Assembly (NCBI GenBank): GCA_000934665.2
Contig: JYFJ02004063.1
Coordinates: 1 to 35,159 of the forward strand
Reading direction: 5' to 3'
Length of the DNA: 35,159 nt
Origin: Catajapyx aquilonaris
Taxonomy: Eukaryota
How positions within the stretch are numbered: the stretch's first letter is position 1; the number at the start of each line of letters is the position of its first letter. A program made the translations under genes and the position numbers. This document shows, in pieces, positions 3,857-32,433 of the stretch. The notes under the pieces were generated by a model, which was given only the letters and a program-made list of their open reading frames with translations, had not been told where the DNA came from and made no database searches.

Positions 3857-4147
3857 ACCGAAGCAGTAGTGGTGTAGTGGTATGGTGTCCGACTGCTAAT
3901 CGGGAGGTCCTGGGTTCGAATCCCGGAGGCCGGCGACCCTGATCATGGTTTTCTGTGGTTTCCCATGGTCATCGCAGGATAATTCCGGGGTCGTTACCGT
4001 AATTATAGGCCACAGCCGCTTCCTTCCTTACCTATCCTTGCCTCAATTCCGATGAAAAAGTATAGTAAAGATGGAAAGAGTTCCAGACAAAAAAATTGGG
4101 AGAAATCCCCCCCTAATAAAGCCTAAAGGGCTGATAATGGGGTATCA

Positions 4148-4190
<43 letters not shown>

Positions 4191-4207
4191 ATTATTATTA
4201 TTATTAT
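3857..4207 (+). mobile_element. tRNA-derived SINE, family C (tRNA-Ser GCT-like head)
   Basis: A-box, CCGA-CTGCTAA-TCGG anticodon arm, GGTTCGAATCC, (ATT)n tail, 15-bp TSD TATCTTGAAATAAGG. Confidence 0.9.
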
Positions 4208-4584
4208 TATCTTGAAATAAGGCAGAGGGAAATCAATACACCTTACTTAGTCTGGAATCTCCCTTTATCAGCCCAACGGCTTTTCTGTAATCTGAGAAAT
4301 GTGTCCGAGCATTTGGTTTACGGGTGTTAAGATTGATTTTAGTTTACCAGGGAGATGCCAATTATGTAACCTGGATGAACCTTTCTCGTTGCACCATGCC
4401 CTAATGGTGTGCAGACAAACAAAACAGCTATGTAGCTATGTATCTGCAGACATTTCCATCCGTTCTGCCAGGTAGACTGCACTGGCTATTGGCAAATTTG
4501 ACAAAAGATACAGCTTTTGCGCTCATTCACTTTTTTTCTGGATTGCTGAGTGTATTTGACCTATGTGCATTGTGAGTGTAAATA

Positions 4585-4792
4585 CAGGGTGTCTAAACTT
4601 TTTTGTCTGAACAGTTATCGGGAAAGCCTACGTATCTTCTAGCTATGTAGCTAGAATATGCCCTAACATTCCTGGCACATCCCTCAACAGTTGAGGGATG
4701 TGCCAGGAATGTTGGGCATATTCTGGCTACATAGCTAGAAGATACGTAGGCTTTCCCGATAACTGTTCAGACAAAAAAGTTTAGACACCCTG
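4585..4792. mobile_element. Palindromic Tc1/mariner-type MITE
   Basis: TA|CAGGGTGTC...GACACCCTG|TA; arms of ~103 bp are almost perfectly complementary around a 1-nt centre. Confidence 0.9.
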
Positions 4793-5151
4793 TATTCATG
4801 TTTGTATTATGCTGCTGGGGGAGGTCCCCCGAAAAGCCCTCCAGGGCTATCACGGGGTAAAAACAATAAAAAATTAAATAAAAATAAAAATATAATGTAA
4901 ACCCCCTTCCTAGGGTGTTCAAATCATATAACATCCGTAATGCGCACAATAACCCGGATGTCCCTCTTGTGTGCATAATGTAGGAGGTTGGTGTATGGTG
5001 TATATGAAAGTACACATCCTGATTGTTCCTCTGGACATACCCATTACATCCTCACTTGCACGTACCATCGTGAACACAGCCATCTTTCTCCCATTTTGCC
5101 TGTTTTGGTTTTAAGGTCCCATTGACCTTAGTTGCTCTCGCCCGCCAGAGT

Positions 5152-5855
5152 GGGGTTGCCGATTAGGGCTGCTGCAAACGTGGGGATTCAGGAGGGGAAA
5201 GTTGCGTGAGCGTGCGAGCTTCTCCCAAATGTCTTCCATGTGAGAAATCTGGACGTGCTGGTTGTTCTCTCCTGGCGCATGCGCTGTATGCTTTCCTGGA
5301 TGGATTCACGGGCAACAAGCTGCTCACGAATCCTCATGTTTGCGGCGGCCCTTAGGTGCTGGTGTTTCTCCACAGTTCCTAAGGTGGTTCCTGCGAACAA
5401 CTCTTTGCATTGTGGGGAAGGTGTGGCAGCCGAGATGGTAACGTCTCGGCTTGCTGAGTGAAAGGTCCCAGGTTCAATCCCCGCCTGTGAGTTCCCTTTC
5501 ACCTCTCTCTGACCCGTGCCTTGGAGGTGTCTGGCAACCGGACCTCCTGGGGAACAGCACATGACCCCTTCACAGACATTGCACTTGTACCCATGTTCCC
5601 TCCCCCCCAAAAACCCCTATCCTTACCCGATGTCCCTGTTTCCTTGTATCAGAGAGAGAAGAAAAGTTGCAAAAACACTAGAAAACTGATGGTGGTATGC
5701 CACCCCCCTATAACAGCTTACAGTTGTATCATGGGGTAAAATATATATTTTTTCAACTCTTTGCATTGCAGCTGGATCTGGAGCACATTTGCAGAGTTGT
5801 CCGCAGGAAGCACTTTAGAACTGTGGAGCGACACAAGCACCTAATCGGCAACCCC
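5152..5855. mobile_element. Foldback/MITE-like element interrupted by a SINE
   Basis: Termini GGGGTTGCCGATTAGG and CCTAATCGGCAACCCC; internal inverted repeat 5352-5404 vs 5792-5844; no clear TSD. Confidence 0.55.
5413..5753 (+). mobile_element. tRNA-derived SINE, family A
   Basis: Head GCCGAGATGGTAACGTCTCGGC...GGTTCAATCC; 15-bp TSD CAACTCTTTGCATTG. Confidence 0.9.
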
Positions 5856-6484
5856 TCCAGGTGGCTACAGGTGGCTGAGCTAAGCTCACAGGGCTTGGAA
5901 TTTGATAGTAGAAGCTATTCTTAGCCACCCATGAAAATGAGGGCCACTCTCTCACTGTGGTTACTCTTCAAGGAGCAGAACTGTCACACCAATTTCAGAC
6001 AATCATAGGCTAGGCTACTATGAATACGCTTCAGATGGAAAAAAATTTGAGAGTCATGAAGAGGGTATCCCCGTTTCCATCCTTTCACTAGCTGTGCCTC
6101 ACAGTAAATCTAGGAAACTACCCTTCTGCAGTTTCTGCAACTTTCCACATGGTGCTAATTGTCCAAGATTGAAAATTTGTACACTACTTCCATATGATTT
6201 GGGAAAGGAGTTGCCAAATCTATTATTTATGACTAGAGAATGGATTTCCAGGTTTTTACCTACTTTTTATTTTGTAGGCAGAACACCAGAACCAAAATAT
6301 CTATCTGTTTCATAACACAAGGACTTCAAAAATCATAGTTTTATGGAACATAAAATAGCCTATTTTTGGCATTGGGACCTAAATGGCCTATTACCACGTA
6401 TTTACACATTTTTGACACCATTCTGTAATATTTGCGAGAATTTTTGCGGGTTTTCCCTTCAAGGCATCCCTCCTGCTTCAACGT

Positions 6485-6580
6485 GCGAAGGGTGAAGAAG
6501 CTGTAGGCATTCTAGATGAACTGGCAGCAGAACAAATTTCACTTTTCAAGTATGATCCAGTTACTTCATGTGACGTCGAA
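6485..6580 (+). pseudogene. Relic of a hAT (CGGBP/hAT19-like) transposase C-terminus, in a deleted element of about 6310-7115
   Basis: Translates as AKGEEAVGILDELAAEQISLFKYDPVTSCDVE, resembling the FKYAPxTSCDVERSFS motif around the catalytic Glu. Flanked by CCTA/TAGG-rich subterminal-like sequence. Confidence 0.65.
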
Positions 6581-6703
6581 ATGTATTGCCAGACAGGTGT
6601 CACCAAATAACTGCAATTAACCAACGAAAATATAAAACAACTGCCAGTTTGTTATTGTGCTGCAAATTTCCATGGCCAAGCGTAGGCTGTATAGAAATGA
6701 AAA

Positions 6704-6977
6704 ACCGAAGCAGGTTGGCATAGTGGATAAGGCGTCCGACTGCTAATCGGGAGGTGCTGGGTTCGAATCCCGGGGCCGGCAACTCTGACCGTGGTTTTCT
6801 GTGGTTTCCCACGGTCCTTCCAGGAAAATTCCGGAGTTGCTTCCGTAATTAATAGGCCACAGCCGCTTCCTTCCGTCCCTATCCTATCCCAACGAGCGCA
6901 GTAAAATGAAAGGCAAAGAGTTCCAGACAAAACAAACTTCCCCCCCAAAGAGCCGATGGCTGATAACGGGGTATGAA
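6704..6977 (+). mobile_element. SINE family C
   Basis: Near-identical to the 32151 copy; 14-bp TSD TATAGAAATGAAAA. Confidence 0.9.
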
Positions 6978-7632
6978 TATAGAAATGAAAATAAATTAGG
7001 ACCTGCTTGATTTTTACTGCTTATTAAGAGCCTAGTTTAACTGCTTTCAGGGCCTAAATTCCTACCTATTAGAGGGTTTTTTAGAACCTAAAAATACGTT
7101 CATTATTTATGACCATGCTATGGCCTACCCCACTACGACACCATGTTGCCCATAATGTTGGATCATAATGCCTCATTCCAATGCTCAGGGCCTGCATCTG
7201 GGTGCTCGAATTATTTAAACATAAGCATTGGTGGTCGCTTTGGGACCTCATTGGCAACAGCCTTGCCATAACCATATAATGTGCTTGTAGGCCTACATAT
7301 GCCAAGCTTGCTCATGTCCTACGAGTTCACGTGGCACTGGCAGACTAATCTTCGTTCATGGAGGGAGTAAATCTTTAGGTGCTGTAATAATTTAGTGACT
7401 GCATTGATTTTAATTAAATAGTCACATCTTTGCATATCACAGCTGTCTGTTGCATCCAAAGGGTCAGTTTATCAAAGCAAATTAGAGGAGAGCTCTTATT
7501 ACATATTGGTACTCACAATACATATGGTAATCAAATATGTCCTAAATTTGTGCTGATGCGAATAGCCCTAAACGTGTACCACTATAACTTCATCACCACA
7601 TGCACACCCAACACAGCTTGGTCAGCACTAAC

Positions 7633-7842
7633 CTCCGGGTGCTCTTCCTCCACAGCTCCTTCTTGTGGTGCTGCGGGAGTCACAGGCTTCTGCCACCTTT
7701 CTTTTTCCTTCTTTGCCTTATCAGTAATGGCTTTCTTCCCACTTTCTTCGAGCTTTTTCGCCACTTGATCCGAAGTGGCGAATTTCTTTCCTTTGGCTTT
7801 CTTCTTGTCTTTTTTGGCGAAGAAGTCATCTAGGTCGGCCAT
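7633..7842 (-). CDS. CDV3: CDV3 homologue, first coding exon (70 codons); later exons not found in window
   Basis: Translates as MADLDDFFAKKDKKKAKGKKFATSD...HPE, the characteristic CDV3 N-terminus. GCC-ATG-G Kozak context. Phase-0 donor GAG|GTTAGT at 7632. Confidence 0.9.
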
Positions 7843-7939
7843 GGCGACTCCTATACTTACCGAAGAGACAGAAGAGGAAAAGACTTTCAGGGAGGAGATC
7901 CGCAACACATGTGTTACACCATGACCCGAATACTCGCCC

Positions 7940-9707: not shown

Positions 9708-9862
9708 AGGGGCGTTCAGACGAGGCAACCTGGTTGAATGCAACCTGAAATACACGGAGAGAATAGGAAGTTGCAGCAACCCAAAAAATGCTGCAACTTT
9801 TCTGCAACCGGGGGCTGCAACCAAGGTTCCTATTCTCTCCGTGTATTTCAGATTGCAGGTTG
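9708..9862. repeat. Palindromic MITE fragment (Harbinger-like start)
   Basis: 31-bp inverted repeat 9739-9769 vs 9827-9857 with internal TGCAAC repeats; begins GGGGCGTTCAGAC. Confidence 0.6.
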
Positions 9863-9869
9863 TTTTACT

Positions 9870-10290
9870 TAACAAAACTGAGACCCAGTTAAAAACTCAA
9901 CTACTATAACAAGTCTGGACCACAACCACAGATATAATAATCGCTACAAATTGATCAAACATAACCACAGAGGCGTATTTTACGTATGGCCTGCCCCTCT
10001 ACTTACAACGAATGCTGATAAATTTAAGAAATGGCTCGAAATACCTCCCCATTAACCTGGCATAACATGGTGTAACCTGAATGTCTCTTGAACCTCATAT
10101 CATCTGATGTTTGAGTGCCCTATATATTTATTACCCCCCGCAAAATATATCTCCACATGATCTCCACACACTTTATGTTCTCCCTCCAGACTTATCATCA
10201 TTTGTTTTTGATAACTTAACTAAACAACATATCACCCTACTTTTTTCCCTTTTTTCCAATGTCTCTAAACGTATTCAATAACACTGATCT
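9870..10290 (+). mobile_element. Degenerate LINE 3' coding relic
   Basis: Peptides HLMFECPIY and FVFDNLTKQHITLLFSLF parallel HHFIFECPVF and WSFANITKDQAFNVFFLF of the LINE fragment at 31262-32500. Confidence 0.55.
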
Positions 10291-10955: not shown

Positions 10956-13900
10956 TAGGGTGACCAACCGTCCCGGTTTGCCCGGGACTCTCCCAGTTTT
11001 GACACCTAAGTCCCGTGTCCCGGGCATACCCTCCCCGGGACGCATAAATGTCCCGGATTTCGTCAAGTAGTGTGCATATGGACGTTGGACGACCAATGGT
11101 CCTAAATGGTACATAAGACTACAACCCTACACACAATAAAGTTGCGCCGGTGCGGTGGTTGGCTGAATGGCTGTGGGAGAAGGCAGATGGCAGAATCTCA
11201 TATATATCTATGCTACCATCAGCCATCTTCTGCCACCGATCACCGTCCACTACCGGCGCCACTAAACAGTGCGTTCAAGCTTCAAGGTTCAACCCTGGTT
11301 CAGCTAGCTGACACCAGATGGTGCCCTCCGAAGTCAGCTAGAGAGTAGAGACAGGCAGCTAGAGCGGGAGACGTGAGAACTAGAATCTAGAAGTCTAGAA
11401 CCTAGAAGAGTTGTTGGCTGTTACAGTAAAGTAATGCAGTCAGCAGGGGGGAGGGGGCAGGCACAGAGGCACTAGAAGTAGAGTACAGATGTACAGTGTA
11501 CACTGTACAGACTACAGGAGAGGTGACGCAGTACAAGTACAGGACGAAGATCGTCACACTCAGCACGCACAGTACTGAGTACGCACTGTACCTCTGTACG
11601 CTAGTACGTCAGTACGTGTAAGGACGAAGTACAGTACAGGCACGCCACACGCGGCAGAGGCAGACGGCGTCGGGATCTGGGACACTGGGAGGTAGGCGGT
11701 AGGCCGGTAGTGGTCTGCGGTCTTATTGTCAGTTTGGTTTGGTTTGAGAGTTATTCCTTGACTGTCCTCTGTCCGCTTGTTCTGGCAGGTGCTGGCTCTG
11801 TGTATGATTTCACTGGTGAATCTGGCACTGGGGAGCTGACGCTGACCATCTGTGCAGGAGAGGTGCTGTCGTGCTGAACATTACCACTTACCAGGCAGGA
11901 TGATGGAGAGGGATGGTGGGATATTCTGTGTGGGGCACTGGACGTCTGGACTTGAATGATAGGCATTGGTTTGGCTTGAGAGTTATTCTGTGTGGCTGAA
12001 TGATAGGCACTGCTTTGATAGGCCAGATTTGTGACCATGGTTAGTTCAGACTCTTCAGAGTCAGACGACAATAAGGATTGCCATTCCAGCCAGACGCAGA
12101 CACCACCAAAAAAAGTCAAACGTCTGTGTTACTTCAATGGTAACTGGAGAAACAAATACTCATGGATTCGAGAGGTGGGCAACAAAAACCGAGCATATTG
12201 TACAATATGTAGAAAAGAATTTGGAATTGGACATGGTGGGGAAGGGGATGTGAAAACGCACATGGAGACGGAATGTCACAAGTCTGGGATGAGACAAACA
12301 AGTTCTTCTAAGTCAATAAAAAGCTTTTTTGTCTCTCAAACAGACACAAAGTCTCAGTCCCAAGTGGCAGCTGCTGAACTGTCATGGGCTTACCACACAA
12401 ATTTCCATGCATTATCATATCGTTCATTGGATTGCTCAATAAAATTGAGTAAAATATCATTTCCTGATTCAGAGGTTGCAACTAAAATGTCATGTGGGCG
12501 AACGAAGGGGGAAACACTCATAACAGATGTGTTGGCCCCTTACAGTGTAGGGCTGATTTTGTCGGACCTCAGCAAAGATTATGCCTTCTACAGCATATCA
12601 AGTGATGCATCAAATCATGGTAACAAAAAAATGTTTCCTGTATCACTTCGATACTTTCATTTGAAAAATGGGACGACTAATTGCCTCCTTGATTTCTATG
12701 AAGATTGCAATGAGACGTCTGACAACATCAAGCAAAAGATTGTTGATATTTGGCCAAATACAAACTAGACATTGCTCATCTGTCAGCTTATTCGGCAGAT
12801 AGTGCAAATGTGAATTTTGGCAAATTTCATTCAGTGTATCAACTTTTGACAATCGAAAATGACAAGATTTTAGCTGCCAAATGCCCTGCCCATCTTGTCC
12901 ATAATGCTGCGAAAAAAGGGTGTGATTTGCTGGCATGTGATGTGGAAGCTTTCATCATGAAAGTATTTGGTCACTTCTCTGTGTCTGCAAAACGGGCAGC
13001 AGCTTTGAATGATTTTTTTGATTTCTTGGATATGGAAGCAGATCGCCTGCTAAGGCATGTGCCAACAAGATGGCTGTCATTGTTGCCAGCCATAGAAAAA
13101 ATGCTCAAGTGTTGGCCAGCTGTCAAGTCCTATTTCCAAAGTCTGGGGCAAGAAGACTGTCCTACATTTATATGGAAACATATCGATGATGAGGCAGGAG
13201 AACAGAGTGGATGTAAAACAGAAATTTACTTGTTGTTTCTCCAAAATGTACTGAGGGTTTTTGAAGAGGCTATCAGGAGCCTTGAAAAAGATGAATTGAC
13301 AGTAACTGAACTGTACGAAGTGATGAGTAGGTTGTGGCAAAAACTCAAACAAAGAAAAACTGACTCATTTTTTGGACACATGACAGTCACAGAACTTCGA
13401 AAACTGTCACCAGGAGATGCACGTAAAATCAAGCAGGACTTTCTCCGGTTTTTTACTAAAACTATTGATTATCTCGAATCAAACTTTGACTTTACAAATT
13501 CAAATTACCTCTGTGCATTGACACCATTTTCGCTGAAAACAAAAAGCTTGACTTATGAGGACATCCAAAGTGCATCTGAGTGTCTAAAAATGATGGACGT
13601 ATTGGATATGGATAGCCTATACGATGAATTCATTGATGCAAAACATTTCATGGACAATCAAATGGCCTTCCCCGACAAAGCAGTAGACAAAAAATGGGTG
13701 GACATTTTTGGTGAACTGGAGAGTAATTCATACAAGTTCAAAAACCTGTTGTTGCTTATAAGCAAGATTCTAAGTATTCCTTGTGCAAATGCTTTTGTGG
13801 AAAGAATATTTAGCATGATGGCGTCTCACTGGAATGATACCAGGAATCGGTGTAATGTGGGCTTGATGAGGGCAGAGTTGCAAGTCAAAGTTAATTTTAA

Positions 13901-14030
13901 ATTCGACTGTCTTCAGTTTTACCATTATATAAAAGACAAGAGAGATGTTCTAAAAGCTGCAGGCAGCTCAGATAAGTATTATTGGAAAGGGAAACCGAAA
14001 GATTGAAAAGGTTGCATATCAATATTCAGA
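10956..14030 (+). mobile_element. hAT DNA transposon, Blackjack-like; left end intact, matching right TIR not found
   Basis: Left terminus TAGGGTGACCAACCGTCCCGG with repeated GTCCCG/CGGGAC subterminal motifs, and an internal hAT transposase. Confidence 0.85.
12037..14006 (+). pseudogene. hAT transposase (~655 aa) with one frameshift at ~12750
   Basis: BED-like finger CTIC..H..ECH; catalytic motifs SISSDASN, YSADSANVNFG, CPAH (CxxH), PTRW and PCANAFVERIFS. ORFs 12031-12768 and 12750-14006 join if one T is added to GATATTTGGCC. Confidence 0.88.
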
Positions 14031-15100: not shown

Positions 15101-15200
15101 ATGAAGACGACGATGGTTCTCAGGTCCATCACCAAGATGTTGGACTTTTATTCACAGTTCAACCCGTCACCCCTGTCCATTAAGCAGTTTATCGACTTTG
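15101..15200 (+). CDS. Pdk: Pyruvate dehydrogenase kinase exon 1
   Basis: CACCACC-ATG start; MKTTMVLRSITKMLDFYSQFNPSPLSIKQFIDF(G), a PDK N-terminal motif. Donor G|GTGAGT at 15201, phase 1. Confidence 0.93.
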
Positions 15201-16038
15201 GTGAGTATATAAATGCAGTAATTCCCTTTTCAGAGAATGGTACTGGGGGTCATTGACCTTTAATTGCTAGTTGGGTCGATATTTGGTAAAGGTTCAAGGT
15301 AGCCTACATGGCTCTTTGACCACACTCGAAGTAAATGGTTTACTTGTGATTTAACCTTGATATTGTTTGGTAATTGTTACAAATGAAAAGCAAGGATAAA
15401 CCAGCCTCAGATCATTTGTTTTCAGTGGTAAACCTGGGCCACAGAGAATTGGGATCATTGATTAGTTCACATGAGTCACTTGGTCATGGACCTTGAGGAC
15501 GCGAAACATTTTGAGTGGCATTGATGTTTTATGTGCAGTGCATGCCCGGGATTTATAAACAGTTCATCATTCCTTTAGGCAGGTGCATTCCATTGTTGAT
15601 AATAGTCATTATCTCTTCGTGAGGTACACTGATCTCCTTATTGTGGCACTTTCCGGTGCCATTCGGACTTTGTCCCTGACATTGCCATAGTGAAGCAAAT
15701 GTGAAACCCAGACGTTAAATTGAGGACAATCGCAGAAGTTATTTGCAGGCGGTCGTTCACCTTATCAGGGCTTTCCGCATTCTTCAAATGTCTTGATAGT
15801 CTCTGATGGTTGAACTGGGCATGGAAGACCCTGGTTTGGAATAGAATGGGGGGATTGGGGGAATCCCTCGTGTGTGAGGCCTTTTGCTCTCCCTTTCATT
15901 ATTATTTAGTTTGTTTTATTTGTTACAAACCTTTGTAATGGGGCACCCTGAGTGCCAATGGCACTAGCTTAGCTGGTACCTCCATAGCAACCCTAGTTCC
16001 ATCTCTAGTTATTGCAAAATTGATGTGCAGGTGCTTAA

Positions 16039-16321
16039 CCCAGGAACTGAGATGTGCCTGAAAGCTACGGCAACCGTGACGTGGGGTCTTTTAGGACCCC
16101 ATCCATATTTTAATTTTTATTAATTTTTATATAATACTTTTCGATGTATTGACTATATGTAATCATTCTTTGAACAATGCCTAAAATAATCGCTAAGGCA
16201 AAATAAACATGCACTTCATGTTATATACTTTTTTTAAATGGCATAAGTTCACTGTAATTATCATTTTCATGCATTTTAATTCCATTGGGGTCCTAAAAGA
16301 CGCCACGTCACGGTTCCAGGG
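16039..16321. mobile_element. piggyBac-type MITE
   Basis: TTAA|CCC...GGG|TTAA with subterminal TGGGGTC-TTTTA-GGACCCCA palindromes; the left TIR is split by a 27-bp insert. Confidence 0.8.
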
Positions 16322-17493: not shown

Positions 17494-17854
17494 TTTTATT
17501 TTATTTTTTATTTTTTATTTTTCGTACCCCTTGATGGCCCTCTATGGGCCTTTCGGGGGGTGGCAGACCACCATACAGTTTTCTAATTAGTTTTTCTTCG
17601 AATCACCGGTGCAAGGATTACTGGGAAATAGGGTAAGGGTTGGGGATTTGGGGAGGGGACACATGTGCAGGTGCATTGTCCAGCGGTGGGCCAGGTGCAG
17701 TCCCCCAGGAGGTCAAGTTGGCAAGACGCCTCCTTAGGCGCGGGTCACGACCCATTGATGCAAGCGAAAGGTTTGTTCCCGGGTGGGGATTTGAACCCGG
17801 GACCTTTCGCATAGCAAGCCGAGACGTTACCATCTCGGCCACCGTGCCTCCCCC
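17494..17854 (-). mobile_element. SINE family A (diverged subfamily)
   Basis: Head GGCCGAGATGGTAACGTCTCGGCTTGC; TSD GAAG(G/A)CTATTTAT. Confidence 0.85.
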
Positions 17855-17970
17855 GAAGACTATTTATAAACATGTATAAAGCTCATCACTATGTATTTAA
17901 GTACAATTTTTATATTTGCATTTATGGTTTGATATCTGAGTTAAACCCCCACCTCAATGTCACAGTTTAT

Positions 17971-19794: not shown

Positions 19795-19804
19795 TATACT
19801 ACTT

Positions 19805-19931
19805 GGGCCGGTTTCACCGAGCTCAGTATATGATAAAACCAGGGTTCTTTCTCAAAATCCCTATCTATTTGTATGGGATTTTCCTAAAGAAACCTGGTTT
19901 TATCATATACCAAGCTCGGTGAAACCGGCCC
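19805..19931. mobile_element. Short palindromic MITE
   Basis: GGGCCGGTTTCACCGAGCT ... AGCTCGGTGAAACCGGCCC; nearly the whole element folds back. Confidence 0.8.
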
Positions 19932-22222: not shown

Positions 22223-22331
22223 GGGTGGAATTTTCGTCATACTACTAGTAGCATACTACTTAGCAGTACCATTGCATTACACTGGTACTGCTAAGTTAAA
22301 AGTAACTAGTAGTACAACGAAAATTCCACCC
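22223..22331. mobile_element. Short palindromic MITE, related to 26101-26197
   Basis: GGGTGGAATTTTCGT ... ACGAAAATTCCACCC flanked by TAT on both sides. Confidence 0.7.
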
Positions 22332-23245
22332 TATGTAACTATGAAGAGTGGCATAGTTTTGAGGATCGCGCAGGATTGCGCATGCTAGGCAGTGGGCATT
22401 CACGTTACATACTTGCGTGGATTAGATTATTAATGTGTACGTCGCTTGTGCTACAGCTGGCGAGTTTGGCACCCAGTTTGTTTATCTAACCGATGGAGAT
22501 AAGCCAGTTCAAGCCCCGTTCAAACCCCCTAATACAACCTGATAAGTGACGAAATAAATGCTAATCCATTCATGACCTAGGATTTTCACAAGCTGTTTCA
22601 GATTGGTAATCTAGACCTAGAGTATAAGGTCAAATATGTCGTCATGTGTTGGTCATGACACATTGCGAAAAGAGGTGTAGGTTAAATGTGAATTTAGAGC
22701 ATGAGCGATAAATCCGTGGGCTATTTTCATTATGTGATCGAAGATTAACAGGATGAGTGGCTCCTATGATAGAAGCTGCCATGCTGCATCAGTTACCATT
22801 GAAATGTCTCACTGTCAGTAGGAGGAGTGATATCCTCATTGGAGTGGGTATTGATTATGATATGGCTTGAAACGTGATCATGGTTCGATATTATACAACT
22901 TTTTAGGAATATTTGAGAGACCATTATTTTAATTTGTTAATATCATAAATTGTTGGCCTTGGGCTTAGCATTACTAACATGTTGCGCATTTTTAAATGCA
23001 AGAGGGATGATTTCTGTGCTGTCATCGGGAAACGGTGCCCTTGAACCACTGGATGTCACGATTTCAAGGTCACATTGCGACGTGGGGGGGGGGGGGGGGN
23101 GGGGCATTGTAGCCTATGTCATGATGTTGCTTGTTTTTGTTATAGGTCACTTATTTAATATGTCGAAATATTATCCAGTCCCACTCACAAGTCACCTTGT
23201 TTTATATTAGGCTGTATACAGGCCTAAATATTAAAAGTTTTATGG

Positions 23246-23287
23246 ATTATTATTATTATTAATATGATGATGATGATGATGATGATG

Positions 23288-23360
<73 letters not shown>

Positions 23361-23379
23361 TTGATCTTAATTGGTGCAA
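23246..23379. repeat. Compound microsatellite (ATT)n(GAT)n(ATT)n
   Basis: Seen directly; it produces the poly-Ile and poly-Met ORF artefacts. Confidence 0.95.
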
Positions 23380-23474
23380 CCCAGCCAACAAACCCAATGT
23401 AACATTTACCACTGGTTTTAATGTTGGAAACAATTTGCCAGTCATATTAACAAGAAGTAACTGTGCAGACTTAA

Positions 23475-24361
23475 GCCGCATTTACATGTGGGCGATTTGA
23501 TCAGCGATGAAATCGCTTGTGAATTGTAGCGGTTCTGACGTCATGATGCAAGCGACAGCGCTTATACATCGCCTGTGTATTTACAAGCCGGCGATGTCAT
23601 TGCCATCATCGCCATCGTCTATTTCAAACAGACCTGAGGAGGGTCTCAACCACTGGCCACTCCCCCTTGAGATCTGTCCTGATCGAAAATTGACTTCACT
23701 TTTCTGGCCTGAGGGCATCTCTACTTTACTGTACGGTTAGCATACTGCCTCCGTTCCCAGCTGTCCAAACCAGTGCAGCTGCCAATATAAAAAAGTGGAT
23801 GCAATTCACAACCAGGTAAAATATTTTGGGAACCAGGCAAGCAGCACTGTAGTTCCGAATAGTTTGAGCCTGTGACACTTAGAGAATGATTTACATGAAA
23901 CTTTGTGGTCGGTTCCAGTTGAGACAAGGCCAGCTGCTTCTGGAAACAAGCATTAGCAAGGAATTTGTTTCAGGAGATTAGTGTGGAGGGCAGGACTATA
24001 TTGAGTAGTGTAACAATCAAGTTCGCCTCCAAAAATTGCATCACAATATGGGGCAATAGTTGAATCACTTAGGCCAAGTTGCACCTGCTCCCGGAAAATT
24101 TGTCTGGCCGAAGAAGAGCCAGGTTTGTTTGTTATTCATTGTTGTCAACAATTCTGTGAACAATGAATAACAAACTTACCTGGCTCTACATGTGAGCGAT
24201 TTGACAAGCGAAGCGGAGCAAAGTCATCGCCGAGTGACATAACCAATATTGTTTGAGTTGAAAGTAACAATCGATTTTCGCCTCAAACAATACTGGTTAC
24301 TCAGTGTTGTTATCGCCGGTGATGACATCATGCGATCAAGTCGCTCACCTGTAAACGCACC
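23475..24361. mobile_element. Harbinger-like non-autonomous element(s) with an internal hairpin
   Basis: Degenerate TIRs TAA|GCCGCATTTACATGTGGGCGA and TCGCTCACCTGTAAACGCACC|TTA; internal hairpin at ~24116-24187. Confidence 0.5.
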
Positions 24362-24619
24362 TTAATGGTGTTTAACAATAACTGGTATCCTATGCCAGAA
24401 AAATAATGAGATGAAAGTCTTTCAAGTAAGCCAATAGGAGAATTCTTGGAATATAAATAAAATGCTACGAGTTAACAGCCTACATAATTAGTCTCCTGTT
24501 ATGAATTAAATAGAGCTAGCAAAATGGTTAGGTCCTGGTAGGACATGTATTGGAAAAAATGGTATAGACTGCCTGAATCAGACCAGTACAATCATATGGG
24601 CCGATTAGAGTAGAGTAAG

Positions 24620-24921
24620 GATATAGGCAGCCCACGATAACTTCCAAATGATGTCATCATTTTGTTGACCAATTCCTAGTCAACGGAAATATGTCGAAGA
24701 CACCTGGAACCTCCCATGTTTCAAGTTTCCATGGAGATGCCCTCATGCTACAATTGATGTAAAAATTGCCAAACAAATGCCTTAATTGTTCCATGAGGGC
24801 ATCTCCATGGAAACTTGAAAAGTGGGAGGTTCCAGAGGTGTGTTTGGCATATTTTAGTTGACTAGGAATTGGTGAACAAAATGATGACATCATTTGGAAG
24901 TTATCATGTGCTACCTATATC
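24620..24921. mobile_element. Foldback MITE
   Basis: ~135-bp imperfect inverted arms (GATATAGGCAGCCCACGATAACTTCCAAATG...) around a ~25-nt spacer. Confidence 0.85.
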
Positions 24922-24972
24922 ATAGTAAAGGACTTCCATAAAACACAGAGGTATACATATATGAAGTTATAT

Positions 24973-25929
24973 ACGGGAGGTGTGGTGGCCAAGATGGTAA
25001 CGTCTCGGCTTGCTGAGTGAAAGGTCCCAGGTTCGATCCCCCACCTGGGAGTTCCCTTTCACCTGCGTCGGGAGTGTCTCTGACCTGAATCTTGGAGGTG
25101 TCTGGCAACCTAACATCCTGGGGAACAGCACATGACCCGCAATTGAACCGTGGAATCGGAAAACCGGACAAGTCACATCGAAAATGAAAAGGCGTTTAGG
25201 TACTTGTTGCACTGAGCCTGTCTAAAATCCACAGGAATGGTTGTAGGTGCACCAAATTTGCAAGGTGGGTGCATGCAACGAATTCAAACTCACCGGAATT
25301 GGTTGGAATCATATCTGAGCACCAGAGGCGACACTGTGGCCGTCTCTTTGGACCCCCTGCCCGTGAAAGGGCCCGTTGACTTATCTGATTTTCCGATTCC
25401 ATAGCTCGTAGAAGCTAAGATCGCACCTGCTACAATCCACAGGAATGGTCGTAGGTGCACCAAATTTGCAAGGGGGGTGCATGCAACGAATCCAAACTCA
25501 TCGGAATTGGCTGGAATCATATCTGAGCACCAGAGGCGACACTGTGGCCGTTTATTTGGACCCCCTGTGGTGAGATATGATTCCAGCTAATTCCGGTGAG
25601 TTTGGATTCGTTGCATGCACCCACCTTGCAAATTTGGTGCACCTATGATATTCCTATGACTATTCCTGTGGATTTTAGACAGGCTCAGTGCAACAAGTAC
25701 CTAAAGGCCTTTTCATTTTCGATGTGACTTGTCTGGTTTTCCGATTCCACGGTTCAATTGAGACAGTGCACTTGCACCCATGTTCCCTCCCCAAAAATCT
25801 CAATCCTTACCCAATCTCCTTGATTCCCTGCACCGGAGTGAAGTTAACTCAGAAAATTGAGGAAAACTGGTGGTGTACCACCCCGCTATAGAACCTGTAA
25901 GGGTCATCACGGGGTACAATAAAAAATAA
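24973..25929 (+). mobile_element. SINE family A interrupted by a DNA element
   Basis: Head at 24975-25040, body resumes at 25760; 12-bp TSD ATGAAGTTATAT. Confidence 0.88.
25145..25755. mobile_element. Non-autonomous DNA element with AATT TSD (Sola1-like)
   Basis: AATT|GAACCGTGGAATCGGAAAA ... TTTTCCGATTCCACGGTTC|AATT; ~170-bp TIRs; 134-bp direct repeat at 25226-25359 and 25434-25567. A related left end occurs at 10901-10950. Confidence 0.8.
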
Positions 25930-26023
25930 ATGAAGTTATATCTTTGATAGATAACTGGATGAATGCAAATGTAATGTGCAATGATAAATAGAGAATGTGC
26001 TGATAAGATTGTCAAAACCAATA

Positions 26024-26678
26024 CATTGTACTCCCGATTATCCGGGTGTGGATTATCCGTGCATTGCCAAAAAATAAAATTTAAAATTTTAATCCGACGA
26101 AGTGGGTCAAATTTTCGTCCCACTGCTAGATACTGCTAACGTAGCAGTACCAGTACCAACACCAGTAACTAGCAGTGGGACGAAAATGCTACCCACTGTC
26201 AATATGTATTGCCAATGAAGTAATATGAAAACATACTTTTTCTAGAAGGAAAGTAAAAATCTATGGTAAGTTTTATTATTTTGATTCAACCAAGCAGCAT
26301 ACATTTTCTACATCAGTACATTAATAACCTGTGAATAGCTCATTTTTGACAATGTCTGGGACAATTTTCCAATTATCTGTGTTTTCAGATTATCTGGCAG
26401 ATTAGCCCGGATCAGGGTCACCTACATGAGTGCCACCCCCACCTAGACAGGGTATTGTCTCTCCGCCATATTGGAACTAAACCAGATAGGAAAATTGCAT
26501 AGGAAAAAAAACAATTGAAAAAAACAAAAACGAATCGCTTGCCAATTCCCTATCCTGCAGCATGGGGCAGCCATATTGGAACTAGATTGCATAAGGACTA
26601 TGTGAAGACAATACCCTGGTTAGGGTGGGGGAGGCAACCATGTAGGGGACCCTGGCCCGGATAATCGGGAGTGCAGTG
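26024..26678. mobile_element. Tigger-like MITE hosting two nested elements
   Basis: TIRs CATTGTACTCCCGATTATCCGGG and CCCGGATAATCGGGAGTGCAGTG; contains palindrome 26101-26197 and hAT MITE 26413-26654. Confidence 0.7.
26413..26654. mobile_element. hAT-type MITE
   Basis: CAGGGTCACCTACATG ... CATGTAGGGGACCCTG with perfect 8-bp TSD GCCCGGAT. Confidence 0.88.
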
Positions 26679-26888
26679 CATTAATTAACTACAGTATTAT
26701 TCTGATCGTGTGTATGATATGAGAACTGGTAACTTCTACCATACTTTCATCGAACAGTTACATCATTATTGCTTTTTTATAGCTCCATACATTTAAATGA
26801 ATGTTTAAGGAGGAGGACTCGGCATTGCCTCTCGTTCTAAGTATAGCTCCATACTGAAGGTAGTAAGCTAATGACAATTTTTTTTCAG

Positions 26889-27099
26889 GTCGTAGTGCAT
26901 GCGAGCGCACCTCATTTGTCTTCTTACGGAAGGAACTGCCTGTACGATTGGCCAACATCATGAAGGAGATCCATCTACTGCCAGACAATCTTCTCCGCAT
27001 GCCTTCTGTGGGTCTCTTGCAGCAATGGTATGCACGGAGCTTTCAAGAGATTCTAGAATTTGAGAGGGCTGATGCGAATGATGACAATACCCTCCACAA
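26889..27099 (+). CDS. Pdk: PDK exon 2
   Basis: Acceptor ttttttcag|; [41 protein letters not shown]...; donor AA|GTGAGT. Phase matches exon 1. Confidence 0.95.
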
Positions 27100-27158
27100 G
27101 TGAGTGACTGCTTTTGTGCCACTAAAGCTGTGATAACTTATTTCATCGACCATTACAG

Positions 27159-27343
27159 GTTTTGTGAATCGTTGATAAAAATTCGTAACAGGCATTTGAA
27201 CGTAGTGCAGACTATGGCTCAAGGTATGATGGAGCTGAAGGAATCACATGACATTGACCAACAGACAGAGCACAGTATCCAGTACTTCCTTGACCGATTC
27301 TACATGTCCCGCATTAGCATCCGCATGCTCATTAACCAGCACA
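27159..27343 (+). CDS. Pdk: PDK exon 3
   Basis: Acceptor ttacag|; [22 protein letters not shown]...[21 protein letters not shown]; donor A|GTAAGT. Confidence 0.95.
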
Positions 27344-27401
27344 GTAAGTGCTCATTTTAGGTAACTGTTAGGTGCATGAGACTGATATTTTTATTCACTA
27401 G

Positions 27402-27566
27402 CACTTCTGTTTGGAAGTGAGCTGAACGGGCATCATCGACATGTTGGTTCCATTGACCCTCATTGCGATGTGGTGGCAGTGGTGAAAGATGCATATGAAA
27501 ACGCACGATTCCTATGTGATCAGTATTACCTGGCTTCTCCAGACCTCAAGATTGATGAGCACAATG
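27402..27566 (+). CDS. Pdk: PDK exon 4
   Basis: Acceptor cactag|; [49 protein letters not shown]; donor G|GTGAGT. Confidence 0.95.
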
Positions 27567-27933
27567 GTGAGTTTGGCTGAGTTGTGATTGATACAGGTGC
27601 TATGTTGTTTCAAAAGGAGTTCTGGAAACAGTGATTAAATATTGGAGAAATTGCTTTTGACATTCCATTGTGTTTGTAAGGAGTTAATTTGGTTTGGCAT
27701 GCTACATCTAACAGAAGATATGCAGTTGTCATGTGAAACCACCATGTTGTTATAATGTTAAAATGATGTAAAATGGCTGCCTTTGAGAACAACCTGTTAT
27801 TTTGGAAGTAATTCAAGTCAGCAGAGTATTATAACAGTTTTCTATTTCTATTCCATTGTGATCCATTTTGTTGCCACTGAAACCCAGATGAAGTAGAAGG
27901 TAAGCTGTGCAGCATGTGGATGTATTATACATA

Positions 27934-28501
27934 CAGGGTGTTTCAGAGTCACGGGTCAAGCGCGCACTAGGGGGTGGGGGAAAATTGTAAGTGGCGACAA
28001 CCCCAGTCGGTTTTATAAAACAATTAGAAATATGGGAGTAATCAATTGAGTGATTACGGCGTGATGTCACATACTTTCTGTTCGAATTGACTGGCATGGA
28101 CTGGCAGGTGCAGTGGGTTGAACCTTGTTGAACTGCTTTTTAGCCTTGTGGGTTGTACTGAAAAAGGCGCTCTCCTGCTATACCGGCAGGGTACTGTACA
28201 CACTACTGTACAGTAGTACACTACTTTGTACAGTACCCTACCGGTATAGCATGAGAGTGCCTTTTTCAGTGCAACCCGCAAGGCTAAAAAGCCGTTCAAC
28301 CAGGTTCAGCCCACAGCACTTGCCAGTCCGCGCCACTCAATTCGAACAGAAAGGATGTGACGTCACGCCGTACGGCCGTAATAGATAAATTGATTACTGC
28401 CGTATTTCTAATTGTTTTATAAAACCGACCGGGGTTGTCGCCACCTACGATTTTTCCACACCCCCTCGCGCACGCTTGACCCGTGACTCTGAAACACCCT
28501 G
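27934..28501. mobile_element. 568-bp foldback Tc1/mariner-type MITE in PDK intron 4
   Basis: TA|CAGGGTGTTTCAGAGTCACGGG ... CCCGTGACTCTGAAACACCCTG|TA; arms of ~270 bp. Confidence 0.92.
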
Positions 28502-29124
28502 TATAAGTGTGATTACTTTAATGCCTATTGTAGTAATGCAGTATATAAGACTGAATGTAGGCTGTAGTTGGGGATTGCTGTGTACAGTGTTGCACATAGG
28601 AGGCAGGCCAGGCAAGTTCAGCCTTCCCTGAATCTATGAGATGTGAAAACCCAATTTAAGCGTGAAGAAGCGTCAAGGCTTTGTAAGGAGTAATGTGAGA
28701 GTTGCTTACAATGGATAAGTAATGTGATTTTATGTTACATTTAAAAATCGAAAATGAATAAATTAAGTTTCAAATCTGAGACTGATCATTGGAATGGATT
28801 GGTATTTAATTGGATTGATGTCTCATCCAGGAGCGGTCCTTGCTTACCCAGTTGCAGAACTAACACTTTTACACTTGTGCAGGGCTAATCCTTATTTCAG
28901 TGCAGAGGTAGTTCTTGGTAGCTTTGTAATAAAATGTAACAAGATCTACCCCTACGAGCTTATACATTAAATTCAAACCTGTTTGGTGCCTTATGTACGT
29001 ACATTTACATACAATGTGTTCTAACTGAATTGGCTGTGGAGGTAAGTAATTTTACAGTACTAAGCGCCAATTGTTTGAATGAAAGTTAATTATACAACCA
29101 GCCCATAGTCAGCTGCCGCATAAT

Positions 29125-29820
29125 TTTTTAAATATTATTTATTTTATCCATTGATACAACTATAAGTTGTTATAGGGGGGTGGCAGGGGAGACGGAGTGG
29201 CGCCGCGGTAACGTGCGCGCCCACGGATGTTAGGGTCCCGGGTTCGATCCCAGTCCGGGGACACCCCCTTCATCTCGTGCAGAGGTCGGTCACCTCTGGC
29301 TTCGTCTCGGGGGGTATTTCCTACAGACTAAACCACCCGGGGGAGCTCACTAAAAACGGCCACACGTCAGATGCACTGCACTTGCACATCCTCTCCTATC
29401 ATCCTGCCCGTGGGCCCGGGCGCTTCAATAATAGGATTCCCAGAATATGTGCACCATCACAATAAAGGTCTGGCAAAAAACCCCTATGGGGTTAGCCGAA
29501 TACCCAATCAATTATTATTATAGGGGGGTGGCACACCACCATCAGTTTTCAAACTTGTTTTTCTTCAAGCACCGTGCAAGGACTTCAGGATGTAGGGTAG
29601 GGATAGGGATTGTTGGGGAGAGGACACTTGTGCAGGTGCAATGTCTTAAACATTTGGGCCATGTGCCGTCCCCCAGGAGGTTAGGTTACCAGACACCTCC
29701 AAGGTGCAGGTCAGAGACCCTCCTGATGCAGGTGAAAGGGAACTCCCCAGGCGGGGATCAAACCTGGGACCTTTCACTCAGCAAGCCGAGACGTTACCAT
29801 CTCGGCCACCACACCTCCCC
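29125..29820 (-). mobile_element. SINE family A with a family B copy inserted in its tail
   Basis: 15-bp TSD CAGCTGCCGCATAAT at 29110-29124 and 29821-29835. Confidence 0.9.
29186..29517 (+). mobile_element. SINE family B
   Basis: Full head with GGTTCGATCCC; 16-bp TSD TTATAGGGGGGTGGCA. Confidence 0.9.
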
Positions 29821-30474
29821 CAGCTGCCGCATAATCAATTGTTAGTAAAGGAAGCTTGTATTCTTCATCTTATATTTAAAGGCAACTCTCACCCACTGCC
29901 TTCTGTGAATCCCACCCTTCTCTGGGTCATACACATAACAAATTGATAAGCTCACCAAGACATGGAGTTGTCATGTCATGCATTTGACACAATGTACCAG
30001 GAAATTATCATACTGATAACATGACAACTCCATGATTTTCAAAATATCTTGTTGCCTTCAGTTATTGTGGTGGGTGCAGGCTCATAGTCAGACAGAGAAG
30101 AGAGGAGGGGCAGACAAAAATGAGGGTCAGGCAAAATTTTTGCATTTTAATTAATCTGATATTTTTAATTTTCCACCCTCGCACCACAATGTATTTTCAA
30201 TATAAAAATGCAACTGAAATAAAAATAGTTGGGACTATAAACTGTAAAACAATGATACCACGATGTTATGCAGGTTCCGCAAAGCTGAAATATGGTATTT
30301 TCACTTTTAACAGAAGATGAAGAATTTCTTCTCTTATTAGCTCTTATTAGGATGATAAGAAGGATGGATCAAATAAAGCATTTTTAACCCAGATATGCAG
30401 AGTGCCCCCTACAGGGGACACCTGCATTGTTGTCACATTTTAATTTTTTTTTTAAATGCTGGTTCTTCTGCTGC

Positions 30475-30746
30475 GCCGACCTTGGTGGACTAGTGGTTAG
30501 CGCGCTTGCCTCCGGTCCCAAGGTTGTGGGTTCGAACCCGGCCGAGGTCGGTGACTTTTCTCCGGGTGGTAGAAAAGTGAGAGTGCTCTTTCCTTCGGAG
30601 GGGAAGTAAAGCCGTTGGTCCCGTGTGCTTGTGACATTGCGTGAGATCCCCAGAGTGGCCAAATTTCCAGGAGGAGGACCACCCCCTGGCGTCGGTGTTG
30701 AGCCTTAGAGGCAGAAATAGGCCGACGTTAAGCCCCACTGAACCCA
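30475..30746 (+). mobile_element. tRNA-derived SINE, family D (Talua/Nin-domain-like)
   Basis: A/B boxes, core CCTTCGGAGGGGAAGTAAAGCCGTTGGTCCC, 13-bp TSD GTTCTTCTGCTGC. Confidence 0.85.
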
Positions 30747-30915
30747 GTTCTTCTGCTGCTAAAGTCACAGGAGTGACGGGTGGCAGTAGTGACAGAGTCA
30801 CAGCTAACGATACAAGTTAAAACCTGCTTGATATTGCTTCAGATTTTGAAGATACAGGTGTTTGAATTTTAACGCAGGAAATAATGGCTGCACCGTCATG
30901 TTCCAAATATGATTA

Positions 30916-30920
<5 letters not shown>

Positions 30921-30963
<43 letters not shown>

Positions 30964-31217
30964 GATACCCCGTGATAGGCCCCTTGGGCCTCTTAGGGGA
31001 TCATCTTTTGAATATCCGACTTTAATCATTTGCCTGTAATGTGATGGATTTTGATAGTGGGAGGAAACGGGAGAACCCCGAGAAAACCCACGCGAATACG
31101 GAGAGAACCCATCGAAACTATATCCACATAAATATCCTCCGTCCGACCCGGGGATCGAACTCGGGACCTTAGAGGTGGAAGGCTGCGGCGCTAACCACTC
31201 GGCCATCGTGTTTCCCT
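30921..31217 (-). mobile_element. tRNA-derived SINE, family E (V-domain-like)
   Basis: A/B boxes; GCGTGGGTTTTCTCGGGGTTCTCCCGTTTCCTCCCAC resembles the V-SINE domain; (ATT)n tail; 16-bp TSD AAATATGATTAGTAAT. Confidence 0.88.
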
Positions 31218-31781
31218 AAATATGATTAGTAATTAATTCTCTAATGTTGATTAGTGTTATGAGTTTTTTTTTTAAATGTTTTTTTTTATTATTTCAATTA
31301 CCCCGTGCCACCCCTTGCGGGGTCTTTGGGGGAATCCTGCTCCCTACATACAAATAACATTGTCATCAATATTACCGTGCACAGCAAGCCATAACCAAAA
31401 TACATGAAATATATTATCCAATAATCAAATTTGACATAATTCTTGTATACAGAGGGTTGTTTTAAAAAAGAAAAAAAACATTGAAGGCCTGATCCTTTGT
31501 TATATTTGCGAAGGACCATAGCAAGCGATCTGGAGGGGAACGGGGCAAGTCTGTTAGGTAACGCTCCCTGGGCCCATTAAAAACTGGACACTCGAAAATG
31601 AAATGGTGGAGAGTCTGAGGCTGCATCATACAACAATAATCACATGGCTCATCTTGAAACACTCGCAGCACCTCTCCGCATACGTAATAATTAGCGGAAA
31701 GGTTTCTTATATTTATTATCAGACGAGTGATTTGCAGAGGTAACAATATGAGTTATTTATTATTTGTAATACTTAGAAAAA

Positions 31782-32097
31782 GGGAGACGGAGTGGCGCCG
31801 TGGCAACGCGCGCGCCCACGGAAGTTAAGGTCCCGGGTTCAATCCCCACCCGGGGTTCCCACCTTCTTTCGTGCAGAGTTGAGCCATCTCTGGCTTCGTT
31901 TCGGGTGGCAATTTCCGACAGACTAAGCCACCCGGGGGAGTTCACAAAATGGCTGTTTGAGACATTGCACATGCACTTTGCACATCCCCTCCTACCTACC
32001 CTTGGAACACACTAAATACTATCTTAGTATACCAGTTCCTCCCAGATGGTGGTAGTCCACCCCCCTAAAGGAAATGTAACTCCCAATGGGGTAATGC

Positions 32098-32139
<42 letters not shown>
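31782..32139 (+). mobile_element. SINE family B with poly(A) tail
   Basis: Head GGGAGACGGAGTGGCGCCG; ~40-nt A tract; flanked by CTTAGAAAA. Confidence 0.88.
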
Positions 32140-32141
<2 letters not shown>

Positions 32142-32150
32142 TAGAAAACT

Positions 32151-32433
32151 GTCGAAGCAGGTTGGCATAGTGGATAAGGCGTCCGACTGCTAATCGGGAG
32201 GTCCTAGGTTCGAATCTCGGGACCGGCAACTCTGACAGTGGTTTTCTGTGGTTTCCCACGGTCCTTCCAGGGAAATTCCGGAGTTGCTTCCGTAATTAAT
32301 AAGCCACAGCCGCTTCCTTCCGTCCCTATCCTATCCCAAAGAGCACAGTAAAATGAAAAGTAAAAGAGTTCCAGGCAAAACAAACTTCCCCCCTAAAGAG
32401 CCGATGGCTGATAACGGGGTATGAATTATAATA
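32151..32433 (+). mobile_element. SINE family C
   Basis: Near-identical to the 6704 copy; TSD CTTAGAAAACT. Confidence 0.9.

What the first reader, a model, noticed from the sequence alone, without database searches (positions are those of the whole stretch)
4107..32421. One covarying 3'-terminal RNA structure shared by four SINE families and a LINE in the same window
Seen: about 11 element ends follow the pattern CCCC(C)-A-rich bulge-[inner hairpin]-(ATCAC/ATAAC-like)-GGGGTA-tail. The inner hairpin changes sequence but keeps pairing: AGCC-taaag-GGCT (C, ~4120), AGCC-gat-GGCT (C, ~6952 and ~32399), AGCCC-tcca-GGGCT (orphan tail, ~4835), ACAGCT-tac-AGTTGT (A, ~5713), ACAACT-tat-AGTTGT (A, ~29160 minus), GGCCC-ataga-GGGCC (A, ~17540 minus), AGGCCC-aag-GGGCCT (E, ~30985 minus) and ACCCC-gcaa-GGGGT (LINE 3'UTR, 31309-31323 minus). 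Weaker versions occur in A at ~25895 and B at ~32070. Established: many SINEs borrow a stem-loop 3' end from a partner LINE whose reverse transcriptase mobilises them. Inference: SINEs with different tRNA heads have repeatedly swapped tails while keeping a shape-based recognition signal for this LINE clade. Tails differ even within family A, which is unusual.
Basis: partly seen in the sequence, partly recalled or inferred. Interest (0 to 1): 0.78.

Follow-up and report, generated by a model that had tools for sequence, protein, structure and literature searches.

The report
Shared LINE tail hairpin in SINEs
Four kinds of short parasitic repeats (SINEs) and dozens of distantly related LINE retrotransposon families in this arthropod genome end in sequence predicted to fold into the same two-tier RNA hairpin, likely the handle by which the LINE enzyme copies them, which is a well-known arrangement seen here in an unusually rich set.

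Summary
Real. All ten hairpins lie at the stated coordinates, at element 3' ends. The fold (outer stem, internal loop, inner hairpin, then an AATAAA/microsatellite tail) ends 43 of 47 LINE families of one clade sampled from this genome (RT median 45% identical), with changes on both sides of both stems, and 8 of 12 ends of relatives from other animals. The LINE has ORF1, APE-RT and a C-terminal zinc finger; likely RTEX, not formally placed. Corrections: the 'orphan' is a second truncated LINE; the 29160 copy has lost its outer stem; the shape is not clade-specific, since RTE and I-type LINEs here fold alike; 0 of 8 window SINE tails match one sampled LINE family in sequence. Tail exchange is real: B and a fifth family carry either this tail or a second one. 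In family A only the inner hairpin turns over. Stringent tail recognition, compensatory change and tail exchange are all published; I found no paper on an RTEX-SINE pair. The scan noted this structure twice before on other pieces of this genome. Function untested.

The parts
4101..4148 (+). two-tier 3' structure of SINE C (divergent subfamily; element 3857-4207, (ATT)n tail)
   Evidence: (37.5 bits, training member), TSD 3842-3856/4208-4222
4214..4566 (+). 5'-truncated, frameshifted LINE ORF2 C-terminus (zinc finger), family near L023; owner of the 'orphan' tail
   Evidence: tblastn E 8e-8; blastn 67% over 320 bp to L023
4581..4796 (.). palindromic MITE-like insertion splitting that LINE's 3' UTR
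   Evidence: arms 4581-4663 and 4714-4796, 99% complementary
   Evidence: 80% over 86 bp to L023 end; 2 of 300 nulls
5695..5742 (+). 3' structure of SINE A (element 5413-5753)
   Evidence: TSD
6932..6977 (+). 3' structure of SINE C (element 6704-6977; tRNA-Ser-like head 6710-6781)
   Evidence: TSD
17521..17568 (-). 3' structure of SINE A (element about 17859-17494)
   Evidence: 8-bp TSD
25873..25920 (+). 3' structure of SINE A (element 24973-25929, interrupted by a nested insertion)
   Evidence: TSD
29141..29188 (-). 3' structure of SINE A (head at 29820), outer stem broken; separated from its body by a B SINE inserted into the tail
   Evidence: 16.3 bits, not in training; A TSD 29110-29124/29821-29835; B TSD 29170-29185/29518-29533
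30962..31009 (-). 3' structure of SINE E (element 31217-30919)
   Evidence: TSD
31297..31342 (-). 3' structure of the window's main LINE fragment
   Evidence: 98% identical copy with RT upstream
31462..31752 (-). ORF2 C-terminus (C-x2-C...H-x4-C) of that 5'-truncated LINE
32052..32095 (+). weak 3' structure of SINE B (element 31781-32139)
   Evidence: 18.2 bits, not in training; z -0.25
32380..32425 (+). 3' structure of SINE C (element 32151-32433)
   Evidence: TSD

Best explanation
These are 3' tails of one radiating LINE clade (likely RTEX), kept by compensatory change in a predicted outer-stem, internal-loop, inner-hairpin fold, and SINE families A, B, C and E carry the same tail, likely so that the LINE ORF2 protein binds their RNA and copies it. 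Shown: the position at element ends, the covariation, the LINE anatomy, the target-site duplications, the exchange of tails among SINEs. Inferred from the L2 precedent (PMC4176376): the basic linker between endonuclease and RT binds the stem generally and the inner hairpin or loop more selectively, and reverse transcription is primed on the repeat tail at an endonuclease nick. SINEs took the tail several times from the CCCC/GGGG sub-branch of the clade, passed it among themselves by recombination, and family A renewed the inner hairpin between constant flanks.
For: 43 of 47 family ends fit the fold at -5 kcal/mol or better; 35 of 47 beat all but 5 of 100 dinucleotide shuffles. With tails called automatically, 28 of 42 families reach -8 against 11.7% of 840 shuffles and 0 of 166 upstream windows (those windows are poorer in G+C). 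Joining halves of different families breaks it: in-register inner stems pair fully in 202 of 1640 chimeras, outer stems in 614 of 1640. Sequence-only alignment of 14 LINE and 7 window ends: 29 cells changed on both sides against 12.0 shuffled, 0 of 500; slid controls lower. 16 disjoint close family pairs: 28 two-sided against 6 one-sided changes on fitted stems. 8 of 12 ends of relatives from other genomes at 10 or fewer of 200 shuffles, 0 of 3 unrelated controls. 91 of 99 model hits are followed at once by an AT-rich tail. 7 of 10 hand-picked SINE tails from elsewhere in the genome match one LINE family better than random hairpins. A basic P-W linker with a second W 19 residues on lies between EN and RT in 5 of 5 own ORF2s printed (two are one family), the spacing of ZfL2-2 W325/W344.
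Against: No functional test. RNAalifold on a sequence-only alignment of 43 LINE ends predicted no pairs (lengths vary and the alignment slips). Most counts use stems fitted per sequence, and related SINE copies inflate. 20 of 37 chimeras with the nearest family still form 4 bp. 0 of 8 window SINE tails match a sampled LINE family at 5 or fewer of 300 nulls, so their specific partners are not identified. The nested shape also ends RTE and I-type LINEs of this genome. The second W of the linker is absent in most relatives from other genomes, and I had no ZfL2 sequence to align. RTEX is a recalled label.
Confidence: 0.8

Rival explanations
1. The fold is conserved for RNA 3'-end formation or stability (it sits directly before an AATAAA hexamer), not for recognition by the reverse transcriptase.
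For: AATAAA or a close variant follows the outer stem within about 0-7 nt in most LINE ends here and in relatives.
Against: SINEs with tRNA-type heads keep both stems, and several C and E tails go straight into (ATT)n without AATAAA. In L2 elements the 3' stem-loop is needed for retrotransposition and bound by ORF2 (PMC4176376).
Confidence: 0.1
2. Recognition is by shape alone: any ORF2 of the clade copies any such tail, and the inner hairpin drifts freely under pairing constraint only. A variant of the best explanation, not exclusive of it.
For: 32 different inner-arm 4-mers among 43 families; five or more hairpin types behind one A scaffold; window SINE tails match no one family.
Against: Some SINE tails copy one LINE family's hairpin and loop exactly (L066/L067 with L080; L294 with L024); close LINE families often keep stems (L024/L082, L080/L027). 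ZfL2-1 and ZfL2-2 do not accept each other's loop.
Confidence: 0.35
3. Artefact: a conserved C run and G run pair by accident and short hairpins can be found in any 20 nt.
For: Low single-sequence z-scores; 11.7% of shuffles and 32% of chimeras reach -8 kcal/mol; one search found no consensus.
Against: The outer stem changes on both sides in other branches (CGTC/GACG, CGCC/GGCG, TTTCC/GGAAA, TTGAG/CTCAA); interior shuffles, chimeras and slid registers are all far worse.
Confidence: 0.03

Closest known systems
Stringent L2 tails: zebrafish ZfL2-1/ZfL2-2, eel UnaL2/UnaSINE (Hayashi et al. 2014, PMC4176376; abstract and sections 13, 19 read)
   Same: 3' stem-loop before a repeat tail; stem exchangeable, structure required; basic EN-RT linker with P-W and a second W 19 residues on.
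   Different: Different LINE clade (RT tree); two stems around an internal loop followed by AATAAA; here dozens of co-resident families; no assay.
Plant RTE LINEs with Au-like SINEs (Nishiyama and Ohshima 2018, PMC6007223; passages) and monocot L1 with SINE2 (Ohshima 2013, PMC3747384; passages)
   Same: SINE and LINE share a 3' hairpin kept by compensatory changes while stem sequence varies.
   Different: Described there as a single hairpin; RTE lacks a full ORF1 (PMC3905857, passages), whereas this LINE has one.
Bivalve HCD-SINE mosaic evolution (PMC11481361; PMC4758252; passages, section 11 part 1) and SINE tail exchange (Kojima 2018, PMC5786205; passages)
   Same: One LINE tail shared by several SINE superfamilies; one SINE group using several LINE partners.
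   Different: Partners named there are CR1, CR1-Zenon, L2, Nimb, RTE, Vingi; RTEX has 0 occurrences in the main text of PMC11481361 and PMC5786205; turnover of only the inner hairpin was not in the passages I saw.
RTEX clade of non-LTR retrotransposons (Repbase class listed in PMC5753468; passages)
   Same: ORF1 plus APE-RT ORF2 without RNase H; C-terminal C-x2-C...H-x4-C finger and microsatellite tails (RTEX features recalled, not read).
   Different: No labelled RTEX sequence was available; ORF1 shows no esterase hit in Pfam.

Membership tests
Stringent-type LINE/SINE pair | SINE with tRNA-derived Pol III head | tested here: met
   Family C: ARAGORN and Rfam tRNA at 6710-6781 and 32157-32228. 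A, B, E were not detected by either; their A/B boxes are judged by eye only.
Stringent-type LINE/SINE pair | SINE tail homologous in sequence to a LINE 3' end | tested here: inconclusive
   7 of 10 picked SINE tails elsewhere match one family; 0 of 8 window SINE tails do beyond the shared scaffold; 47 families sampled of an unknown total.
Stringent-type LINE/SINE pair | 3' stem-loop conserved by compensatory change | tested here: met
   negative on the unstructured alignment
Stringent-type LINE/SINE pair | Target-site duplications and repeat tail (TPRT marks) | tested here: met
   10 of 10 SINE insertions examined, 0 of 2 LINE fragments
Stringent-type LINE/SINE pair | Structure needed for retrotransposition and bound by ORF2p | not testable with these tools
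   needs an assay
RTEX clade | Full ORF1 ahead of an APE-RT ORF2, no RNase H | tested here: met
   ORF1 of 289-344 codons and ORF2 of 1153-1283 codons in L083, L093, L159 (L107 ORF1 cut by contig end); Pfam EEP and RVT_1, no RNase H in 4 of 4 ORF2s
RTEX clade | C-terminal cysteine finger in ORF2 (feature recalled) | tested here: met
   invariant C1015 C1018 H1028 C1033 in alignment A2
RTEX clade | RT groups with named RTEX elements, sister to RTE | tested here: inconclusive
   No named RTEX reference. Quick tree: apart from RNase H-bearing and CR1-like rows (SH-aLRT 99), joined to RTE-like rows at only 52; my outgroup labels are by domain content and recall, and two 'CR1/L2-like' rows fell among RTE-like rows.
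RTE clade | ORF1 absent or rudimentary (PMC3905857) | tested here: not met
L2/CR1 or I/Nimb clades | RT groups with these clades; RNase H for I/Nimb | tested here: not met

The most novel reading that the evidence does not exclude
The inner hairpin is an exchangeable address: each family of this LINE radiation reads its own hairpin on a common scaffold, and SINEs re-target themselves to whichever family is active by replacing only that 13-16 nt cassette. The roughly 47 ORF2-linker/hairpin pairs in one genome, with the scaffold conserved in relatives from other animals, would then be a natural table for decoding how a LINE protein picks its RNA.
Probability: 0.25. Interest if true: 0.6.

Novelty: new member of a known kind. 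Interest (0 to 1): 0.35.

Why it matters
It likely adds an RTEX-type LINE to the clades known to mobilise SINEs and shows its tail fold holding across a large radiation and across animals. The mechanism class is established, so a specialist would find it neat, not surprising. Its use is as a test set: many cognate protein/RNA pairs, and SINEs with swapped hairpins, make the question of shape versus sequence in LINE template choice directly testable, which also bears on retrotransposon-based gene insertion tools.

Tried and rejected
RNAalifold on a sequence-only alignment of 43 LINE ends: no pairs. My first structure string for alignment A4 was one column off (model R1, unused); corrected. Model R2 is narrow: among 100 sources it found mainly CCCC/GGGG-type ends and none of the true ends of 15 loci from other genomes; no whole-genome covariance scan was done. 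mis-parsed several hairpins and is replaced, where one row (25873) is still mis-parsed. 'Orphan tail is a headless SINE': rejected; a pattern search found no second copy. 'Shape is unique to this clade': rejected, although R2 does not hit RTE or I-type ends (its one hit is an inserted A SINE). Partner LINE of the second tail type: not found among the clades fetched. Rfam has only the two tRNA-like heads. Rows dropped: of 150 RT hits 110 were fetched, 85 had a C-terminal match, 65 an automatic tail; for one family without a real end was removed, six missed ends were added and two re-anchored by eye on sister copies; the fits for L124 and L145 are doubtful and were left out.
Full report
Observation. 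The window is arthropod DNA (a pyruvate dehydrogenase kinase exon is 80-89% identical to insect, mite and myriapod proteins) dense in SINEs. The copy at 29156 has lost its outer stem. Ten SINE insertions have target-site duplications, which fixes these motifs as true 3' ends. A sequence-only alignment of 12 ends folds to an outer stem of 4 bp, an internal loop of about 4 and 5 nt and an inner stem of 5 bp; 4 of 9 pairs change on both sides, all in the inner stem. Singly the ends are only mildly stable (z -0.25 to -2.6). Two details change: the 'orphan' at 4817-4863 is the end of a second truncated LINE whose 3' UTR is split by a palindromic insertion, and the A tail at 29141-29188 is parted from its head by a B SINE that landed in the tail.

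The LINE. A 98% identical copy elsewhere carries a reverse transcriptase. Searching the genome with it gave 150 scored hits of 653 candidates; I fetched 110. Full-length members have an ORF1 of about 300 codons and an ORF2 with APE endonuclease, RT and a C-terminal cysteine finger, without RNase H. In a quick RT tree 52 own rows form one radiation (SH-aLRT 98) inside a clade (98) with pseudoscorpion, springtail and unnamed metagenome sequences, apart from RNase H-bearing and CR1-like rows and only weakly (52) beside RTE-like rows. This anatomy fits RTEX by recall and by the ORF1 contrast with RTE stated in PMC3905857 (passages); no named RTEX sequence was available, so the clade is likely, not shown.

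Covariation across the clade. With tails called automatically, 65 of 85 loci with a C-terminus gave an end, falling into 42 families whose RTs are 32-74% identical (median 45%); 28 of 42 fit the two-tier fold at -8 kcal/mol or better, against 11.7% of 840 dinucleotide shuffles, 16 of 131 AATAAA-like sites in the window (5 of them these ends) and 0 of 166 upstream windows, which are poorer in G+C. After curation by eye (47 families) 43 fit at -5 or better; three of the four misses carry a mismatch in a stem, and 35 of 47 beat all but 5 of 100 shuffles. Outside the CCCC/GGGG branch the outer stem also changes on both sides (CGTC/GACG, CGCC/GGCG, TTTCC/GGAAA, ACCCT/AGGGT). In-register chimeras of different families pair fully in 202 of 1640 inner and 614 of 1640 outer stems. 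On a sequence-only alignment of 14 LINE and 7 window ends that I chose from the CCCC/GGGG branch, 85.7% of cells pair against 72.7% shuffled and 29 change on both sides against 12.0 (0 of 500; slid registers lower). Among 16 disjoint close family pairs, not all exact sisters, fitted stems show 28 two-sided and 6 one-sided changes. Against: RNAalifold found nothing on a sequence-only alignment of 43 ends, 20 of 37 nearest-family chimeras still make 4 bp, and most counts rest on per-sequence fits.

Beyond this genome. Of 15 clade-side loci from metagenome contigs read to their ends, 12 had a usable end. Eight fit the fold with 10 or fewer of 200 shuffles as good, two were borderline (17, 18), two failed; three unrelated LINEs failed. 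Their outer stems read TTGAY/RTCAA or TTGAG/CTCAA and run into the AATAAA. A distant lineage of this genome (L148, L372, L375) has it too.

The SINEs. A covariance model built from A4 finds the 11 window ends at E 0.012 or better (nine are training members or near copies) and 90 hits in 82 loci. Of 99 hits classified, 33 follow an A head, 34 C, 12 E, 2 B, 3 a LINE C-terminus and 15 none of these, among them a fifth SINE family; 91 are followed at once by an AT-rich tail. On the fitted alignment 92.3% of cells pair against 77.5% (related copies inflate this). Young C copies share one tail. In family A the upstream GGTGG/CCACC hairpin, the outer stem and the ATCAC bulge stay while the inner hairpin takes five or more forms, clustered by subfamily (32 copies, 9 changes against 18 shuffled). 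Two forms differ at about 12 of 15 positions (read by eye) in bodies some 5-15% apart, which suggests block replacement, while one series is linked by small compensatory steps. Seven of 10 tails that I picked after seeing one search match one LINE family better than random hairpins, for example 22 identical bases between L066 and LINE L080, but 0 of 8 window SINE tails do. Whole-tail exchange is plain elsewhere: C heads with A-type tails (L067, L282, L019), and B and the fifth family with either this tail or a second type that has 980 pattern matches against 1 control.

Specificity. An RTE family, an I-type LINE and the second tail type of this genome have unrelated ends that also fold as outer stem, internal loop and inner hairpin, though the model does not hit the RTE and I-type ends. 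The shape is therefore a common design of LINE tails, and clade identity must lie in sequence and spacing.

Mechanism. By analogy with ZfL2-1/2 (PMC4176376, abstract and sections 13, 19), ORF2p likely binds the fold through the basic linker between endonuclease and RT, the stem generally and the loop selectively, and primes on the repeat tail at a nick. The own ORF2s have a basic P-W linker with a second W 19 residues on, as in ZfL2-2; most outside relatives keep the first W only. All of this paragraph is inference. I put 0.8 on RT recognition, 0.1 on a role in 3'-end formation, and leave shape-only against family-specific reading open.

What is known. Shared tails, compensatory hairpins and tail exchange are described in PMC3747384, PMC6007223, PMC5786205, PMC4758252, PMC11481361 and PMC8010984 (passages); PMC11203168 and PMC5753468 were read in passages for RTEX. 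Nine literature searches listed no paper on an RTEX-SINE pair or this fold. The library lacks most subscription papers and Repbase reports, and I read no supplements, so absence is weak. Two earlier notes of this scan describe the same structure on other pieces of this genome; my reading was formed before I saw them, and they led me to PMC4176376.

Verdict. A real, covarying LINE tail structure shared with at least four SINE families: a new member of a known kind. Interest 0.35; the hairpin-cassette reading (probability 0.25) would merit 0.6.

Noticed in passing
window 29461-29505 + and 2142-2189 -; L301-L330: A second SINE tail type (AATAAAGGT... nested stems ...ACCC, then (ATT)n) with its own variable inner hairpin between constant flanks, mostly on B SINEs; 980 genome matches; partner LINE not found.
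   Followed up: partly
window 30470-30745 +: A further tRNA-type SINE (F) with a third kind of tail that folds as nested stems.
   Followed up: partly
window 9862-10278 +: Third, decayed ORF2 C-terminal fragment of the same LINE clade, near family L045; no tail seen.
   Followed up: partly
window 29170-29533; also L096, L102, L103, L282: SINEs often insert into or next to the A/AT-rich tails of other elements, frequently in the opposite orientation, giving tail-to-tail pairs.
   Followed up: no
window 12022-14006 +: hAT-type transposase in two frames (248 and 419 codons; Pfam Dimer_Tnp_hAT).
   Followed up: no
window 4581-4796, 19805-19931, 24620-24921, 25140-25760, 27931-28504: Many palindromic MITE-like insertions, some nested inside SINEs or LINE UTRs.
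   Followed up: no
window 15101-34830 + and 7582-7843 -: Host genes: a pyruvate dehydrogenase kinase spread over about 20 kb, and an exon that resembles CDV3 by recall.
   Followed up: partly
L338, L346, L360, L372, L375: 3' ends of an RTE family, an I-type LINE and a distant RTEX-like lineage of this genome all fold as outer stem, internal loop, inner hairpin.
   Followed up: partly
L136:1453-1760; L306: Hybrid SINEs joining a C head and body to an A-like second half, with either tail type.
   Followed up: no
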